From the IMG/VR virus record IMGVR_UViG_3300029121_000075: a stretch of 9,063 nt of DNA, one strand, 5' to 3'. This DNA comes from a virus. Taxonomy: Duplodnaviria; Heunggongvirae; Uroviricota; Caudoviricetes. The position numbers and the translations under genes were made by a program. Positions within the stretch are counted from its first letter, which is position 1; each line of letters starts with the position of its first letter. Below are positions 654 to 6,853 of this stretch, in pieces. The notes beneath the pieces are model-generated. The model made no database searches. It had not been told where the DNA came from and saw nothing but the letters and a program-made list of their open reading frames with translations.

Positions 654-1736
654 TTAGAACTGGTAAACCATACCTACAGCAACGATATCATCGGTAGCAA
701 CGCCAGATGCTTTCGTGAAATCGCTCTTATCAATCAGGTTGATTTTGTAGTCAACAAAAGTGGACATATTTTTGTTGAAGTAATAGGTTGCACCTACATC
801 AACATATTCAACCAGGTCCTGATCACCCCAAACACCCAAGTCTTTTCCTTTAGAATGCAGGTAAGCAACGGATGGACGCAGGCCGAAGTCGAACTGATAT
901 TGTGCAACAGCTTCGAAGTTTTGTGCTTTGTTGGCAATATGGTTATTACCAAAAACAGTCATGTTCTGGGTTTCAGAATAGGTGGTGGCCAGATAGATGT
1001 TGTTCGCATCATATTTCAGACCAGCTGCCCATACTTCAGCATTTTGACCAGAAGCATTCAGACCGTTGTTACCGTAGATAACCTGATTATTAGTGCGATC
1101 AGATTTAGCATAGGTTGCACCCACGCCGAATCCTTCATACTCATAAGTAGTTGAGAAACCGAAACCATCGCCATTAGCTTCAGTTACTTCATTTCGGTCA
1201 TTTTTGCCCTGATACTGAGCTGCAAAGTTCAGGCCATCAACCAGACCAAAGAAGTCGTTGTTACGATAAGTTGCAACACCTGTGGTGCGACCAGTCATGA
1301 ATACATCTGTTTGGGTCCAGGTATCGCCACCGAATTCTGGCAGAACGTCAGTCCACGCACCGATGTCGTATGCTACACCGTAGTTACGGCCGTAATCGAT
1401 TGAGCCGTAGTCACCGAATTTCAGGCCTGCAAATGCAAGACGGGTTTTGTCTTTGGAGGAACCTTGAGATTCAGCGCGGTTGCCTTTGAATTCATATTCC
1501 CACTGACCGAAACCAGTCAGTTGATCGTTGATTTGGGTTTCACCTTTGAAGCCAAGACGGGCATAAGTAGTATCACCATCATCTGCATCATTAGAGGAGA
1601 AGTAGTGCTTAGCATTAACTTTCCCGTACAGATCCAGCTTGTTACTGTCTTTATTATAAATTTCAGCTGCCTGAGCAGACATCGCCATCAGTACTGATGC
1701 AGCTACAGCAGAAATTGCCACTGTTAATTTTTTCAT
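654..1736 (-). CDS. nmpC: Outer-membrane general porin, OmpC/OmpF/PhoE family (prophage-borne NmpC/Lc/OmpD type)
   Basis: 360-aa ORF. N-terminal signal peptide [23 protein letters not shown] then AEIYNK. Porin hallmarks [32 protein letters not shown], and C-terminal aromatic end ...VGMVYQF. Placement between Q and the holin on the opposite strand matches DLP12 nmpC and phage PA-2 lc. Confidence 0.92.
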
Positions 1737-2324
1737 CGTGAGCCCTTTTTTTTGAACTATTATTAAAAAATGATGTCACTGCGCGATAAATATTCATCTA
1801 ATCAATGTGATTATTTCAAGATGTAAGTTTTAGTTTCTCATTTAATTTGTGAAGTAGATCTCTATTTTTATCTGAACTTTTTCTATCGAAACCTATTTAT
1901 GGCTCTTATTTGAACAAAAATAAACCTATTAGCTAATTTATATTAATGGCTGTTATTTATGGGGGTTCTATAATTCGGCAGTTTAATTTAAATCAACTAA
2001 AAATAACGTCTGAAATTATTTATTGGTTATTTGTTGAGGTTTTCTTATGTATTTGTGGTGGAGTTTTGAACACTCGGTAGCATTCTCATAAATATCATTC
2101 AGTGGTTTACGTACGTAAAAAATTGGTTATGCTGTTAAGAGTGGTTACTTCGTCACACAGCTTAAACCCGCCGTCGAGCTGGTTTTTCCATTTTTTGAGT
2201 CTCGATATTAGCTGATAACTCAATACCTGAGTTATTCACTGACTCCGAGTCTGTTACGTTTCTGCTTTTTTGCGATACGTTGTATTCCCTCAATTTACAC
2301 CCGCTTTGTCTGCGAGGTGGGGTT

Positions 2325-3880: not shown

Positions 3881-4130
3881 ATTAATATTAAATCGGATTA
3901 TTTTTAGCGCTGAATGTGAAATTTAAATAAAAAGGACTCTTCCATGAGTCAAAATCCTTGAAATCTTAAGGGTAAGATAAAAGGTCATTAGACAGAATGA
4001 CACGTTTTATTAATAAATAAAGCTATTGTTTCATTCGTGTGTTTTTCTTTACAAAAGTAATCCTTGCTATGGTTGGTTAATCATGCGTTAATGGTGTTCT
4101 GGTTTGTTACAAAATTATCTGAAGCAGTCA

Positions 4131-4243
4131 TTGTTATAATTTTATTATTTGTACCTCTTGAGATTTCCTTGTTGGTTTTTCTCTCTGATATTTTTTTTCG
4201 GACCATTCTGCCCAAGGGCTAACTTCTTCAAAAGGTAATAATG
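4131..4243 (+). promoter_or_regulatory. Candidate promoter and 5' UTR of the cold-shock gene
   Basis: Extended -10 TGTTATAAT at 4132-4140 in an AT-rich upstream region. UTR segment GCCCAAGGGC...AAAGGTAATA resembles the cspA upstream box plus SD. No transcript data. Confidence 0.3.
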
Positions 4244-4456
4244 ATGTCTAACAAAATGACTGGTTTAGTGAAATGGTTTAACCCTGAAAAAGGTTTTGGT
4301 TTCATCACGCCGAAAGATGGTAGCAAAGATGTGTTTGTGCATTTCTCAGCTATTCAGAGCAACGATTTCAAAACGTTAACTGAGAATCAGGAAGTCGAAT
4401 TTGGTATTGAGAACGGACCTAAAGGCCCTGCAGCTGTTCATGTAGTGACACTTTGA
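4244..4456 (+). CDS. cspI: Cold-shock protein, CspA family (CspI-like)
   Basis: 70 aa [38 protein letters not shown]... with RNP1 (KGFGFI) and RNP2 (VFVHF) motifs. SD AAAGG upstream. The ORF track begins one codon earlier at ATG 4241. Confidence 0.92.
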
Positions 4457-4660
4457 GGTAGAAAATATTACAAACCATATTCACTTTAGATGCCCGTGTT
4501 GCCATGGTTCTCAGTATAGAACATCATCTTTTGATGTTTCTGACAGAAATCCTTTCGGGGCAAAATGTATCTTTTGTAAATCAATGATGATTACATTTGA
4601 TAATATTTCACAATACTTAAATGTTAGCCATCTGTCGTTAGATTTAAGAAAGTGAAAATG

Positions 4661-5806: not shown

Positions 5807-6175
5807 TCACCATAACTGCTAACCATTCTGACCATTTCACAAGTGACAGAGTCAATATCGTATTCTGTCACTGTAAGGCTAATACAGTACTGCAATTCAA
5901 CTACAGCAATGCCTCGTATTTAGGTGAATTTACAATATCGTCCAGTTCGGATGCCGGCTGCATTTCTGAAGATAAGGCATTTCGGTTCGCGTATTTTCCC
6001 CTCATGCTCGTCAGTCCTGCGCGTAGTAAGAAACAGGACACTCACACTAATTTGTGTGGGCATGCTGTGATGTCCTTCTGAATTATCCCCATGCCATTAT
6101 GTAACGCTCTGTTTCAGATGCTCGTCACGGTTGTCAGGCTGTCGGGTCCTCCCAGTGGGGGTCCCTGCCACGGGG

Positions 6176-6200
6176 CGGGAGCGTCGCGGAAAAAGGCTAG
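6176..6200. other. cosN-like cohesive-end site (terminase nicking site); predicted 12-nt overhang GGGCGGGAGCGT at 6183-6194
   Basis: ACG-GGGCGGGAGCGT-CGCGG aligns ungapped with lambda cosN ACG-GGGCGGCGACCT-CGCGG (13 of 17 core positions identical). Downstream GCTAGTTTTTGAAATTTC...TTCGTCAT parallels lambda GCTATTTATGAAAATTTTC...TTCGTCAT. Lies about 165 bp upstream of the small terminase start, as in lambda. Confidence 0.55.
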
Positions 6201-6237
6201 TTTTTGAAATTTCATTCGTCATCACCACCACTGTAAT

Positions 6238-6265
6238 AGATTGATATTACAGTGGTTTTATTTTT
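6238..6265. repeat. Perfect 11-bp inverted repeat with 6-bp spacer inside the AT-rich cosB-like region
   Basis: CCACTGTAATA-GATTGA-TATTACAGTGG read directly, followed by TTTTATTTTTATGG. Possible terminase small-subunit or IHF binding site, or an RNA hairpin. Confidence 0.8.
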
Positions 6266-6358
6266 ATGGTGTCGATTTTGATTGTTTTTTGTTCATCACT
6301 AACACCGTTTGCCTAAAGTTGTTCGCGAGATGCATGTTTAAAACATTCTGGAGCGGGT

Positions 6359-6853
6359 ATGGATCGAGAGTTAAAAAATCTGACGCTGAATATCAGTCAA
6401 CTGGCGGCACTGTCAGGTGTACATCGCCAGACTGCTGCGGCAAGGCTGCAAAATCTACCCGTTGCAGGGGGGCATGAAAGCAACCTCAAGCTTTATCGGG
6501 TGGTTGATATTGTGTCGGCATTTCTGGCATTGCCACCGCCGGTTGCAGAAGGCGAAATGGACGCGCATGAGCGCAAAGCCTGGTATCAGTCTGAACGTGA
6601 GCGTCTTAAGTTCGAACAGGAAACGGCACAACTCATTCCGGCCAGTGATGTCAGACGGGAGTTTGCCATCTGGGCAAAAGCGGTCGTGCAGGTGCTGGAG
6701 ACATTACCGGATATTCTGGAACGTGACTGCGGTCTGCAGCCTGCCGCTGTGAGCCGTGTTCAGTCCATTATTGATGATCTGCGCGATCAGATAGCCCTGC
6801 GGGTGACTGAAGCAGGTGCGGATGATGAGGAGGAATTACAGCAGGAGGAGTAA
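6359..6853 (+). CDS. Terminase small subunit (Nu1-like, winged-HTH DNA-binding)
   Basis: 164 aa. N-terminal HTH-like LNISQLAALSGVHRQTAAARLQNLPVAGG parallels lambda Nu1 (QLADIFGASIRTIQNWQEQGMPVLRGGG). Acidic C-terminus. SD GGAG 5 nt upstream. Stop overlaps the terL ATG (TAATG). Confidence 0.8.
   Translation: MDRELKNLTLNISQLAALSGVHRQTAAARLQNLPVAGGHESNLKLYRVVDIVSAFLALPPPVAEGEMDAHERKAWYQSERERLKFEQETAQLIPASDVRREFAIWAKAVVQVLETLPDILERDCGLQPAAVSRVQSIIDDLRDQIALRVTEAGADDEEELQQEE

What the first reader, a model, noticed from the sequence alone, without database searches (positions are those of the whole stretch)
6120..6358. Lambda-like cos site with a variant cohesive-end sequence
The GC-rich core ACGGGGCGGGAGCGTCGCGG followed by AT-rich DNA is colinear with lambda cosN-cosB. 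The predicted 12-nt overhang GGGCGGGAGCGT would differ from lambda GGGCGGCGACCT at 4 positions. Together with a Nu1/gpA-type terminase about 165 bp downstream, this marks a cos-packaging phage. A variant overhang would restrict which helper or satellite DNAs this terminase can package.
Basis: partly seen in the sequence, partly recalled or inferred. Interest (0 to 1): 0.55.

Follow-up and report, generated by a model that had tools for sequence, protein, structure and literature searches.

The report
Known lambda-type phage cos site
This is the DNA-cutting and packaging site (cos) of a very common E. coli lambda-like prophage; its 12-base sticky end is a natural variant that already stands at the ends of sequenced phage genomes, so the feature is real but ordinary.

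Summary
CCACG|GGGCGGGAGCGT|CGCGG is at window 6168-6189, with the 12-mer at 6173-6184. The termination signal cosQ (GGGTCCT) lies 22 bp upstream. An AT-rich cosB with lambda's R3-IHF-R2-R1 layout follows, and terS starts at +187 (lambda: 191).

GenBank phages cdtI and Tritos begin with exactly this 12-mer, and Tritos ends at ...CCACG. The plaque-forming phage phi458 carries the same cosN and cosB. About 39% of complete E. coli genomes match the region.

The overhang differs from lambda only at positions 7, 8, 9 and 11. Published work describes that right half as naturally variable and functionally tolerant. It is one base from the Gifsy-1 overhang.

The large terminase is gpA-type (24% identical to lambda gpA). 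The small subunit is Pfam DUF1441, not Phage_Nu1, and is at best a remote relative of Nu1.

The idea that the variant overhang restricts what the terminase packages is not supported. The same cosN allele sits next to at least four cosB/TerS types and on terminase-less satellites, and closely related TerLs use many alleles. Specificity lies in cosB, TerS and the TerL N-terminus.

Verdict: real, functional, already known. Nick positions are inferred by homology, not measured here.

The parts
6144..6150 (+). cosQ (GGGTCCT), the packaging-termination signal. It lies 22 bp left of the top-strand nick; in lambda the gap is 23 bp.
   Evidence: Direct reading. It is invariant in an alignment of 8 cosB types. 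It is described as highly conserved among lambda-like phages (PMC4669245).
6171..6186 (+). cosN, written CG|GGGCGGGAGCGT|CG. The predicted nicks are top strand 6172/6173 and bottom strand 6184/6185. These give 12-nt 5' overhangs: GGGCGGGAGCGT at the left end and ACGCTCCCGCCC at the right end.
   Evidence: The cdtI and Tritos records start at the base equivalent to 6173, and Tritos ends at the base equivalent to 6172. The left half GGGCGG and both flanking CG dinucleotides are invariant. Nicking itself is inferred, not measured.
6185..6207 (+). Conserved spacer between cosN and cosB (CGCGGAAAAAGGCTAGTTTTTGA). It is shared with cdtI and Tritos. Similarity between cosB types ends at about +35.
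6216..6226 (+). R3-like TerS site, TCGTCATCACC (+44 to +54).
   Evidence: It sits at the same position as lambda R3 (bp 50-65) and N15 R3 (48-60) (PMC9026076). It is invariant among 36 variants of this cosB type. Four of the ten TCRHCAYC matches in the 9-kb window fall within 6216-6275.
6227..6256 (+). Perfect 12-bp inverted repeat (ACCACTGTAATA / TATTACAGTGGT, 6-nt spacer) that encloses the IHF core. With the T-run it resembles an intrinsic terminator.
   Evidence: RNA fold -21.7 kcal/mol, z = -5.2. Covariation is weak and inconclusive.
6234..6246 (-). IHF core consensus (I1 equivalent): TATCAATCTATTA, matching WATCAANNNNTTR. An A-tract lies 5' of it on the same strand (+ strand T-run 6256-6267).
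   Evidence: See: 2 matches in the window against 0.56 expected. TTGA is invariant and stays at the same position in all 8 cosB types. The A-tract plus core layout matches strong IHF sites such as lambda H'; that comparison rests on established knowledge, not on a tool result.
6268..6275 (-). R2-like TerS site, inverted (minus strand TCGACACC, +96 to +103).
   Evidence: A minus-strand R octamer at +96 to +98 is seen in 4 of the 5 TerS helix-turn-helix groups of the clade. It is complementary to R3 in the fold. It is conserved within the type.
6293..6300 (+). R1-like TerS site, TCATCACT (+121 to +128).
   Evidence: A plus-strand R octamer lies at +121/+122 in every group, wherever terS starts (+130 to +197). 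Its sequence changes with the TerS helix-turn-helix variant.
6359..6853 (+). terS, the small terminase subunit (164 aa, Pfam DUF1441).
   Evidence: See (E 2.7e-41). It is 100% identical to TerS of phages phi458, Ayreon and vB_EcoS-569R4.
6853..8955 (+). terL, the large terminase subunit (700 aa, GpA_ATPase plus GpA_nuclease).
   Evidence: It is 24% identical to lambda gpA over about 620 aa (E 5e-18). It is 88% identical to cdtI TerL from residue 21 onward, with an unrelated N-terminal 20 aa.

Best explanation
Window 6144-6300 is the cohesive-end site of a lambdoid E. coli prophage of the mEp460/phi458/Ayreon packaging type.

Inferred mechanism, by analogy with lambda: TerS (DUF1441) dimers bind the R3, R2 and R1 octamers of cosB. 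IHF bends the DNA at the core between R3 and the inverted R2. This anchors the gpA-type TerL on cosN. TerL then nicks the top strand between 6172 and 6173 and the bottom strand between 6184 and 6185, giving 12-nt 5' overhangs GGGCGGGAGCGT. DNA is packaged rightwards, starting with terS. Packaging ends at the next cos, using cosQ plus cosN.

The four differences from lambda lie in the tolerant right half of cosN. They define only the sequence of the sticky ends. Packaging specificity is set by the exchangeable module made of cosB, terS and the first ~20 codons of terL.
For: Shown here:
- The composite cosQ-N22-cosN signature is unique in the window and absent from 200 shuffles.
- Two GenBank phage records start with this 12-mer, and one ends at ...CCACG.
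- phi458 forms plaques and was imaged by electron microscopy (PMC9701743). It has identical cosN and a cosB with one substitution, and an identical TerS.
- The Ayreon assembly is broken and mis-filled exactly at +4 to +15 of cosN.
- cosQ, CACG|GGGCGG, CGCGG, the R3 region and the IHF TTGA are conserved across 8 cosB types, while the right half varies.
- R octamers hold fixed positions and a +/-/+ orientation across the clade, and they change with the TerS helix-turn-helix variant.
- terS starts at +187, against 191 in lambda.
- TerL carries both GpA domains.

From the literature:
- Right-half variation is common; cosQ and the flanking CG are conserved; terminase is not cosN-specific (PMC4669245).
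- The R3-I1-R2-R1 architecture is described in PMC9026076.
- Relatives with DUF1441-type TerS: LLS/mEp213 are inferred to have 12-nt 5' ends GGGCGGCGCGCT (PMC12315714; GenBank feature). The cyanophage Cr-LKS3 is reported to have 5' cohesive ends beginning GGGC (PMC9303873; TerS homology).
Against: - No direct end-mapping for this cosB/TerS type was found in accessible papers. The Ayreon paper says only that cos is expected within 1 kb upstream of terS.
- I could not read how the cdtI and Tritos record starts were chosen. Asakura 2007 and Vahanian 2017 are not held.
- TerS and IHF binding to the named sites is inferred from pattern, position and covariation only.
- The 9-kb window cannot show whether the rest of this prophage is intact.
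Confidence: 0.9

Rival explanations
1. The site is a relic. The cos sequence is intact, but it belongs to a defective prophage that no longer packages DNA, so it is functionally silent in this genome.
For: - Only 9 kb is visible.
- Many E. coli lambdoid prophages are cryptic.
- Related loci show decay. In L011 the terL next to a window-type cos is truncated at aa 331 by an inserted element.
Against: - terS and terL here are full-length. TerS is 100% identical to that of plaque-forming phages.
- cosQ, cosN and cosB match phi458 apart from one base.
- The upstream Q, lysis and moron genes are intact ORFs with Pfam matches.
Confidence: 0.1
2. The cos site is real, but the nicks are not 12 nt apart at 6172/6173 and 6184/6185. 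The DUF1441/gpA-like clade may cut with a different stagger, as in the 9-nt ends reported for Cr-LKS3.
For: - TerL is only 24% identical to lambda gpA.
- A distant DUF1441-clade phage has a 9-nt overhang, GGGCTCGCG (PMC9303873).
- The ends of the E. coli members appear to be inferred rather than measured in what I could read.
Against: - The CG|GGGCGG...|CG frame with exactly 12 bp between the conserved flanks is invariant across both terminase clades.
- Records for cdtI, Tritos and LLS all use the 12-nt frame.
- Gifsy-1, with a lambda-clade terminase, has a nearly identical cosN.
Confidence: 0.06
3. The 12-bp hairpin plus T-run at 6227-6267 is, also or instead, an intrinsic transcription terminator. 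It would shield terS and terL from read-through out of lysogen-expressed moron genes (csp, gnsB). Q-modified polymerase would override it during lytic growth.
For: - The consensus scan calls it terminator-like.
- The RNA fold is -21.7 kcal/mol with z = -5.2.
- Homologous morons are strongly expressed in Tritos lysogens (PMC9928086 Table 1).
- The path C-G to U-G to U-A is seen at one stem pair.
Against: - Covariation is weak: 90.3% of cells are paired against 89.5% in shuffles, and only 2 cells change on both sides.
- The outer stem is the most variable part of cosB, whereas R3, the IHF core, the T-run and R2 are the invariant blocks.
- Other cosB types lack a comparable stem.
- The T-run is explained as the A-tract of an IHF site.
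Confidence: 0.15
4. It is a chance GC-rich sequence, and the phage packages by a headful (pac) mechanism.
For: None beyond the fact that the 12-mer with up to 2 mismatches is not rare by chance (0.38 expected).
Against: - The composite signature has 0 matches in 200 shuffles.
- The 20-mer recurs in at least 119 viral contigs at the same place relative to terminase genes.
- TerL is gpA-type.
- Phage records begin at the site.
Confidence: 0.01

Closest known systems
Bacteriophage lambda cos (cosQ-cosN-cosB; Nu1/gpA terminase)
   Same: - cosQ is GGGTCCT.
- The ACG|GGGCGG......|CGCGG frame is shared.
- A 12-bp stagger is predicted.
- cosB has R3-IHF-R2(inverted)-R1.
- terS starts about 190 bp from the end.
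- TerL is gpA-type.
   Different: - The overhang differs at positions 7, 8, 9 and 11.
- cosQ is 1 bp closer to the nick.
- The R sequences are unrelated (TC[A/G]NCA[C/T]N against lambda CGTTTCC...).
- TerS is DUF1441 with no BLASTP similarity to Nu1.
- TerL is only 24% identical to gpA.
Ends of phages cdtI (AB285204) and Tritos (OV696610)
   Same: - cosN is identical, and so are the first ~35 bp of the left end.
- cosQ is the same; for Tritos the right arm is about 90% identical (H14).
- TerL is 88% identical.
   Different: - cosB beyond +35, TerS (42% identical) and the first 20 aa of TerL are a different module.
- The situation parallels lambda versus phage 21.
Phages phi458, Ayreon and mEp460 (same packaging module)
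   Same: - TerS is 99-100% identical.
- phi458 has identical cosN and a cosB with one substitution.
   Different: - None of functional note.
- In the papers I could read, their cos was not mapped or named.
Gifsy-1 cos (Salmonella)
   Same: - The overhang GGGCGGCAGCGT differs from the window's at position 7 only.
- cosQ is present.
- Feiss lists it as lambda-like, differing from lambda at 8, 9 and 11.
   Different: The terminase is of the lambda Nu1/gpA clade, and cosB is different.
mEp213 / LLS cos (DUF1441-clade TerS)
   Same: - Same terminase clade: TerS 57-58% identical, TerL about 79%.
- Same R3/R2/R1 positions.
- A 12-nt 5' overhang is annotated.
   Different: - The right half is CGCGCT.
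- terS starts at +130, so R1 overlaps the start codon.

Membership tests
Lambda-like cos site (as defined by Feiss: 12-nt 5' ends with significant identity to lambda, plus cosQ and cosB) | cosN has a conserved left half GGGCGG and conserved CG dinucleotides flanking both nick positions, 12 bp apart. | tested here: met
   CCACG|GGGCGGGAGCGT|CGCGG. Identity to lambda is 8/12, and all differences lie at bp 7-12.
Lambda-like cos site | A 7-bp cosQ (GGGTCCT) lies about 23-30 bp left of cosN. | tested here: met
   It is at 6144-6150, which is -29 to -23; in lambda it is -30 to -24.
Lambda-like cos site | cosB lies to the right of cosN. It has TerS-binding R repeats (R3, inverted R2, R1) and an IHF site between R3 and R2. 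| tested here: met
   The sequence pattern and positions are met. Actual protein binding is not testable here.
Lambda-like cos site | The site lies immediately upstream of terS-terL, with the left end about 190 bp before the terS start. | tested here: met
   The terS ATG is at +187; lambda Nu1 starts at 191 and cdtI terS at 185.
Lambda-like cos site | Virion DNA carries 12-nt 5' single-stranded complementary ends generated at this site. | not testable with these tools
   Only indirect evidence exists: GenBank record starts and ends and the Ayreon assembly break.
gpA-type large terminase | An N-terminal GpA ATPase domain and a C-terminal GpA endonuclease domain. | tested here: met
   PF05876 at E 8.6e-72 and PF20454 at E 6.1e-85. 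BLASTP against lambda gpA gives E 5e-18.
Nu1-type small terminase (Pfam Phage_Nu1) | Sequence membership in the Nu1 family. | tested here: not met
   The only Pfam hit is DUF1441. BLASTP against Nu1 finds nothing.
Nu1-type small terminase (remote homology or analogy) | [quoted passage not shown] | tested here: inconclusive
   hhalign aligns 135 colinear columns with probability 48.7% and E 1.8e-4, using shallow profiles. The single-sequence AlphaFold model is too poor to use (pLDDT 65.9, N-terminal domain 43-66).
Headful (pac) packaging | A pac-type terminase and no defined cohesive ends. | tested here: not met
   TerL is gpA-type, and a cos signature is present.

The most novel reading that the evidence does not exclude
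The GAGCGT right half may mark an 'end-compatibility group'. One cosQ-cosN allele is shared by at least four TerS/cosB packaging specificities. It is also shared by terminase-less satellites that copy a helper's entire cosQ-N-B and carry their own capsid genes (L226, L011). Under this reading, the four mismatches to lambda-type ends would lower cyclization of hybrid-ended chromosomes. That would partly isolate this Escherichia phage-satellite network from lambda-allele phages. The cosB hairpin might in addition act as a Q-overridable terminator guarding the terminase genes.
Probability: 0.2. Interest if true: 0.35.

Novelty: already known. Interest (0 to 1): 0.12.

Why it matters
- **Annotation.** RefSeq labels this small terminase 'DUF1441 family protein' and leaves cos unmarked, even though about 39% of complete E. 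coli genomes carry a match to the region. Marking the site would fix the correct linear ends for these phages. It would also flag assembly artefacts at cos, such as those in the Ayreon and mEp460_4F5 records.
- **Biology.** The site adds nothing unexpected. It fits the published picture of a conserved cosQ and cosN left half, a freely drifting right half, and modular cosB-TerS specificity.
- **Satellites.** The shared cos on terminase-less satellites is the one lead that might repay further work.

Tried and rejected
- **Literature search for the 12-mer.** It returned only two unrelated eukaryotic papers.
- **Key papers not held.** Vahanian et al. 2017 (cosN natural history) and Asakura et al. 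2007 (cdtI phage) could not be read. I therefore could not establish whether the cdtI ends were measured.
- **Phage papers.** The papers on Tritos, phi458 and Ayreon contain no end-mapping.
- **TerS structure.** The single-sequence AlphaFold model had pLDDT 65.9 with a poorly defined N-terminal domain. I ran no fold search because matches would be meaningless. A PDB sequence-profile search gave only a weak HTH regulator hit (E 0.033).
- **Hairpin covariation.** The test on 36 variants was inconclusive.
- **Rfam.** No RNA family was found in the cos region.
- **Species-representative genomes.** The exact 20-mer occurs with phage context only in Escherichia and in mis-binned E. coli phage contigs. 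The hits in Sphingomonas, Streptomyces and Treponema lack cosQ, and I take them as chance matches.
- **Rejected readings.** I rejected chance, headful packaging and 'new overhang variant'.

Full report
**1. Observation**

ACGGGGCGGGAGCGTCGCGG occupies 6170-6189, and the predicted overhang GGGCGGGAGCGT occupies 6173-6184.

The 12-mer alone, allowing two mismatches, would not be remarkable (0.38 expected). The composite signature GGGTCCT-N20-25-GGGCGG-N6-CGCGG is different. It matches once (6144-6189) and never in 200 dinucleotide-preserving shuffles.

GC content drops from 0.555 to 0.35 across the site. The overhang matches lambda's GGGCGGCGACCT at 8 of 12 positions and differs at 7, 8, 9 and 11.

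An ATG-initiated ORF of 164 aa begins at 6359, followed by a 700-aa ORF at 6853.

**2. What the surroundings are**

The window is the late region of an E. coli lambdoid prophage. It is 100% identical to a stretch of the chromosome of strain 20220828076. In order it contains:

- a Q antiterminator;
- a porin gene on the opposite strand;
- a lysozyme and an Rz-like gene;
- cold-shock and GnsB-like morons;
- the cos region;
- terS and terL.

TerL carries both Pfam gpA domains (GpA_ATPase E 8.6e-72, GpA_nuclease E 6.1e-85). It aligns with lambda gpA over about 620 residues at 24% identity (E 5e-18).

The small subunit is Pfam DUF1441 (E 2.7e-41), not Phage_Nu1, and BLASTP finds no similarity to Nu1. 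A profile-profile comparison of six DUF1441 TerS sequences with six Nu1-family proteins gives a colinear 135-column alignment. In it the N-terminal helix-turn-helix regions are superposed. The support is only moderate (probability 48.7%, E 1.8e-4). A single-sequence structure prediction was too poor to settle this.

'gpA-type' is therefore confirmed. 'Nu1-type' holds as a functional analogy and possibly as a remote homology.

**3. Related sequences show it is a phage end**

- *Record boundaries.* A megablast of 5900-6900 against phage records shows several records breaking at this site. Phage cdtI (AB285204) and phage Tritos (OV696610) both begin GGGCGGGAGCGTCGCGGAAAAAGGCTAGTTTTT. The Tritos record ends ...CCCTGCCACG, the equivalent of window 6172.
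- *Viable phages.* Tritos forms plaques and has been imaged (PMC9928086). phi458 was also plaque-purified and imaged (PMC9701743). It has identical cosN, a cosB differing by one base, and a TerS 100% identical to the window's.
- *Assembly artefacts at cosN.* The Ayreon record has the same TerS. About 140 bp of chimeric sequence replaces +4 to +15 of cosN. This is what a scaffolder and gap-filler would do at a physical DNA end. The Ayreon paper states only that cos was expected within about 1 kb upstream of terS (PMC5764929). The mEp460_4F5 record was opened 5 nt left of the nick and lacks 2 nt of cosN.
In 2108 of 5426 complete E. coli genomes there is a match to 6100-6360, and 1444 of them cover at least 80% of it.
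- *Host range.* Among one-genome-per-species representatives, the 20-mer has phage context only in Escherichia and in mis-binned E. coli phage contigs.

**4. Anatomy**

- *cosQ.* GGGTCCT is at 6144-6150, 22 bp from the nick. The gap is 23 bp in lambda and Gifsy-1.
- *cosN.* An alignment of eight cosB types was made. cosQ, CACG|GGGCGG, CGCGG and much of the +18 to +33 block are invariant in it. The six right-half positions vary.
- *cosB layout.* To the right, cosB follows the lambda plan:

| Element | Window coordinates | Strand | Position from nick |
|---|---|---|---|
| R3-like TCGTCATCACC | 6216-6226 | + | +44 to +54 |
| IHF core, perfect match TATCAATCTATTA | 6234-6246 | - | +62 to +74 |
| A-tract of the IHF site (T-run on + strand) | 6256-6267 | - | +84 to +95 |
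| R2-like, inverted (TCGACACC on minus strand) | 6268-6275 | - | +96 to +103 |
| R1-like TCATCACT | 6293-6300 | + | +121 to +128 |

- *Within-type conservation.* Among 36 variants of this cosB type, R3, the TTGAT core, the T-run and R2 are the invariant blocks.
- *Across the clade.* In the DUF1441 clade the octamers hold fixed positions: R3 at about +44 to +54, a minus-strand copy at +96 to +98, and a plus-strand copy at +121/122. This holds whether terS starts at +130, +173, +187 or +197. Their sequence changes with the TerS helix-turn-helix variant:

| TerS helix-turn-helix variant | R octamers |
|---|---|
| ...SGVHRQTAAARL | TCGACAC(C/T), TCATCACT |
| ...SGLHRQTVVARL | TCGACAT(A/G), TCGACATC |
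| ...AGICRQTAAARL | TCAACATA |
| ...TGVHRQTVA(A/T)RL | TCGACATC, TCACCATC |

This matches the R3-I1-R2-R1 arrangement, with R2 inverted, described for lambda, 21, phi80 and Gifsy-1 (PMC9026076). Binding itself is inferred.

**5. The module structure answers the specificity question**

The window and cdtI/Tritos are identical from cosQ through about +35. They then diverge completely through cosB and terS (42% protein identity), and through the first 20 residues of TerL. After that the TerLs are 88% identical, and nearly identical in the C-terminal half. The exchangeable unit is therefore cosB plus terS plus the TerS-binding tip of TerL. This is the same unit that distinguishes lambda from 21 and N15 in the experiments of Feiss.

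The same cosN allele is joined to at least four such modules. Several loci carry cos but have no terminase gene within 1.5 kb downstream; the two examined in detail (L011, L226) encode satellite-type integrase or replication genes next to it.

I also ran a degenerate scan, ACGGGGCGG-N6-CGCGG.

- The lambda allele CGACCT travels with the Nu1/gpA clade.
- TerLs 76-81% identical to the window's sit beside CGCGCT, CTGGCT, CAGCGG, CGGACT, GAGCGG and GAGCGT.
- Gifsy-1, with a lambda-clade terminase, has GGGCGGCAGCGT, one base from the window's overhang.

This agrees with published genetics (PMC4669245):

- Differences at bp 7-12 are common among lambda-like phages.
- cosQ and the flanking CG dinucleotides are conserved.
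- Lambda TerL nicks right-half variants efficiently.
- Lambda and N15 terminases are not cosN-specific.
- A two-base end mismatch costs only about fourfold in yield.

At most, the allele affects annealing of hybrid-ended chromosomes.

**6. The hairpin**

A perfect 12-bp inverted repeat at 6227-6238/6245-6256 encloses the IHF core and is followed by the T-run. The consensus scan flags it as terminator-like, and it folds well as RNA (z = -5.2).

Covariation among 36 variants is weak. Cells are 90.3% paired against 89.5% in shuffles, and only two cells change on both sides. The outer stem is the most variable part of cosB. Other cosB types lack such a stem.

I treat a terminator role as a minor, untested possibility. 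The T-run is sufficiently explained as the A-tract of the IHF site.

**7. Comparison with what is known, and novelty**

The site meets every sequence-level criterion for a lambda-like cos:

- conserved cosN left half and flanks;
- cosQ;
- cosB architecture;
- distance to terS.

The one defining feature I cannot test is the physical 12-nt 5' overhang.

The allele is not new:

- It is the first 12 bases of a 2007 GenBank record and of a second phage record, OV696610 (Tritos).
- A one-base neighbour (Gifsy-1) is discussed in print.
- The sister cos of LLS/mEp213 is annotated in GenBank as a 5'-extended cohesive site.
- A dedicated survey of cosN variation exists (Vahanian et al. 2017, cited), although I could not read it.

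What I did not find in print is an explicit description of the cosB of this particular TerS type. That would be a new member of a known kind, not a new kind.

**8. Verdict**

The feature is real, almost certainly functional, and ordinary. Confidence is 0.9 that this is the cos site, with nicks at 6172/6173 and 6184/6185. The residual doubt concerns the exact stagger and whether this particular prophage is still active. Interest is low (0.12).

The one lead worth recording is that terminase-less, satellite-like elements carry complete copies of this cos, including window-type cosB, next to their own capsid genes.

Noticed in passing
L226 (cos at 11171, + strand); L011 (cos copies at 93, 8228, 10764); also L182, L059, L066, L099, L125: Several elements have no terminase gene within 1.5 kb of a complete cosQ-cosN-cosB of this family. 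L226 has a D5-primase-like gene, SSB, a window-type cos (overhang GGGCGGGAGCGG), then major-capsid (Phage_cap_E) and decoration (HDPD) genes. L011 has a window-type cos with terS and a terL truncated at aa 331. After that come a P4-like integrase, Bro-N, an AAA_25 replicase, SSB, a second cos (cdtI-type cosB) and a ClpP-protease/capsid fusion gene, then a third cos with a DUF1441 terS. They look like PICI-type satellites that copy the helper's whole cos rather than only cosQ-cosN.
   Followed up: partly
L235 (Ayreon MF807953, record 44379-44570): The GenBank record of phage Ayreon has about 140 bp of chimeric sequence replacing +4 to +15 of cosN. The inserted pieces come from terS and from a late-regulator gene. 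This is probably a scaffolding or gap-filling artefact at the physical DNA end.
   Followed up: partly
L238/L241 (mEp460_4F5, LR595868): The record is opened 5 nt left of the predicted nick. It reads GGGCGGGAGCG-CGG, which is 2 nt short of the cosN seen everywhere else. An assembly error at the cohesive end is likely.
   Followed up: no
window 6853-6912 compared with L001 733-792: The first 20 residues of TerL are unrelated between the window and phage cdtI. The remaining 680 residues are 88% identical and nearly identical from residue 381 onward. The recombination boundary of the specificity module therefore lies inside terL.
   Followed up: partly
window 6153-6162 and 6224-6233: The sequence CAGTGGGGGT, between cosQ and cosN, is 90% complementary to the R3 region ACCACCACTG. 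It is a reverse R-like sequence to the left of cosN and is reminiscent of lambda's R4; that comparison is from memory and was not checked.
   Followed up: no
window 4086-4502: An Rfam cspA thermoregulator (107 bits, E 2.5e-27) precedes the prophage cold-shock gene at 4241-4456.
   Followed up: no
window 1700-2200: A very AT-rich stretch (GC 0.26-0.29) lies between the porin gene (654-1736, minus strand) and the lysis genes. It is presumably the late promoter and Q-utilisation region.
   Followed up: no
L247 (Veillonella parvula MAG), L249 (Bacillota MAG): Contigs binned to non-enterobacterial MAGs are 89-99.9% identical to this E. coli prophage region and are probably mis-binned. Exact 20-mer hits in Sphingomonas, Streptomyces and Treponema contigs lack cosQ; I take them as chance matches.
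   Followed up: partly
L229 (IMG/VR locus): This cos has a left arm typical of the DUF1441 clade (GGGTCCT plus 22 bp...GGTGGCCTGCCACG). It is joined to the lambda overhang allele CGACCT and a lambda-like right flank. This suggests recombination within cosN between the two terminase clades.
   Followed up: no
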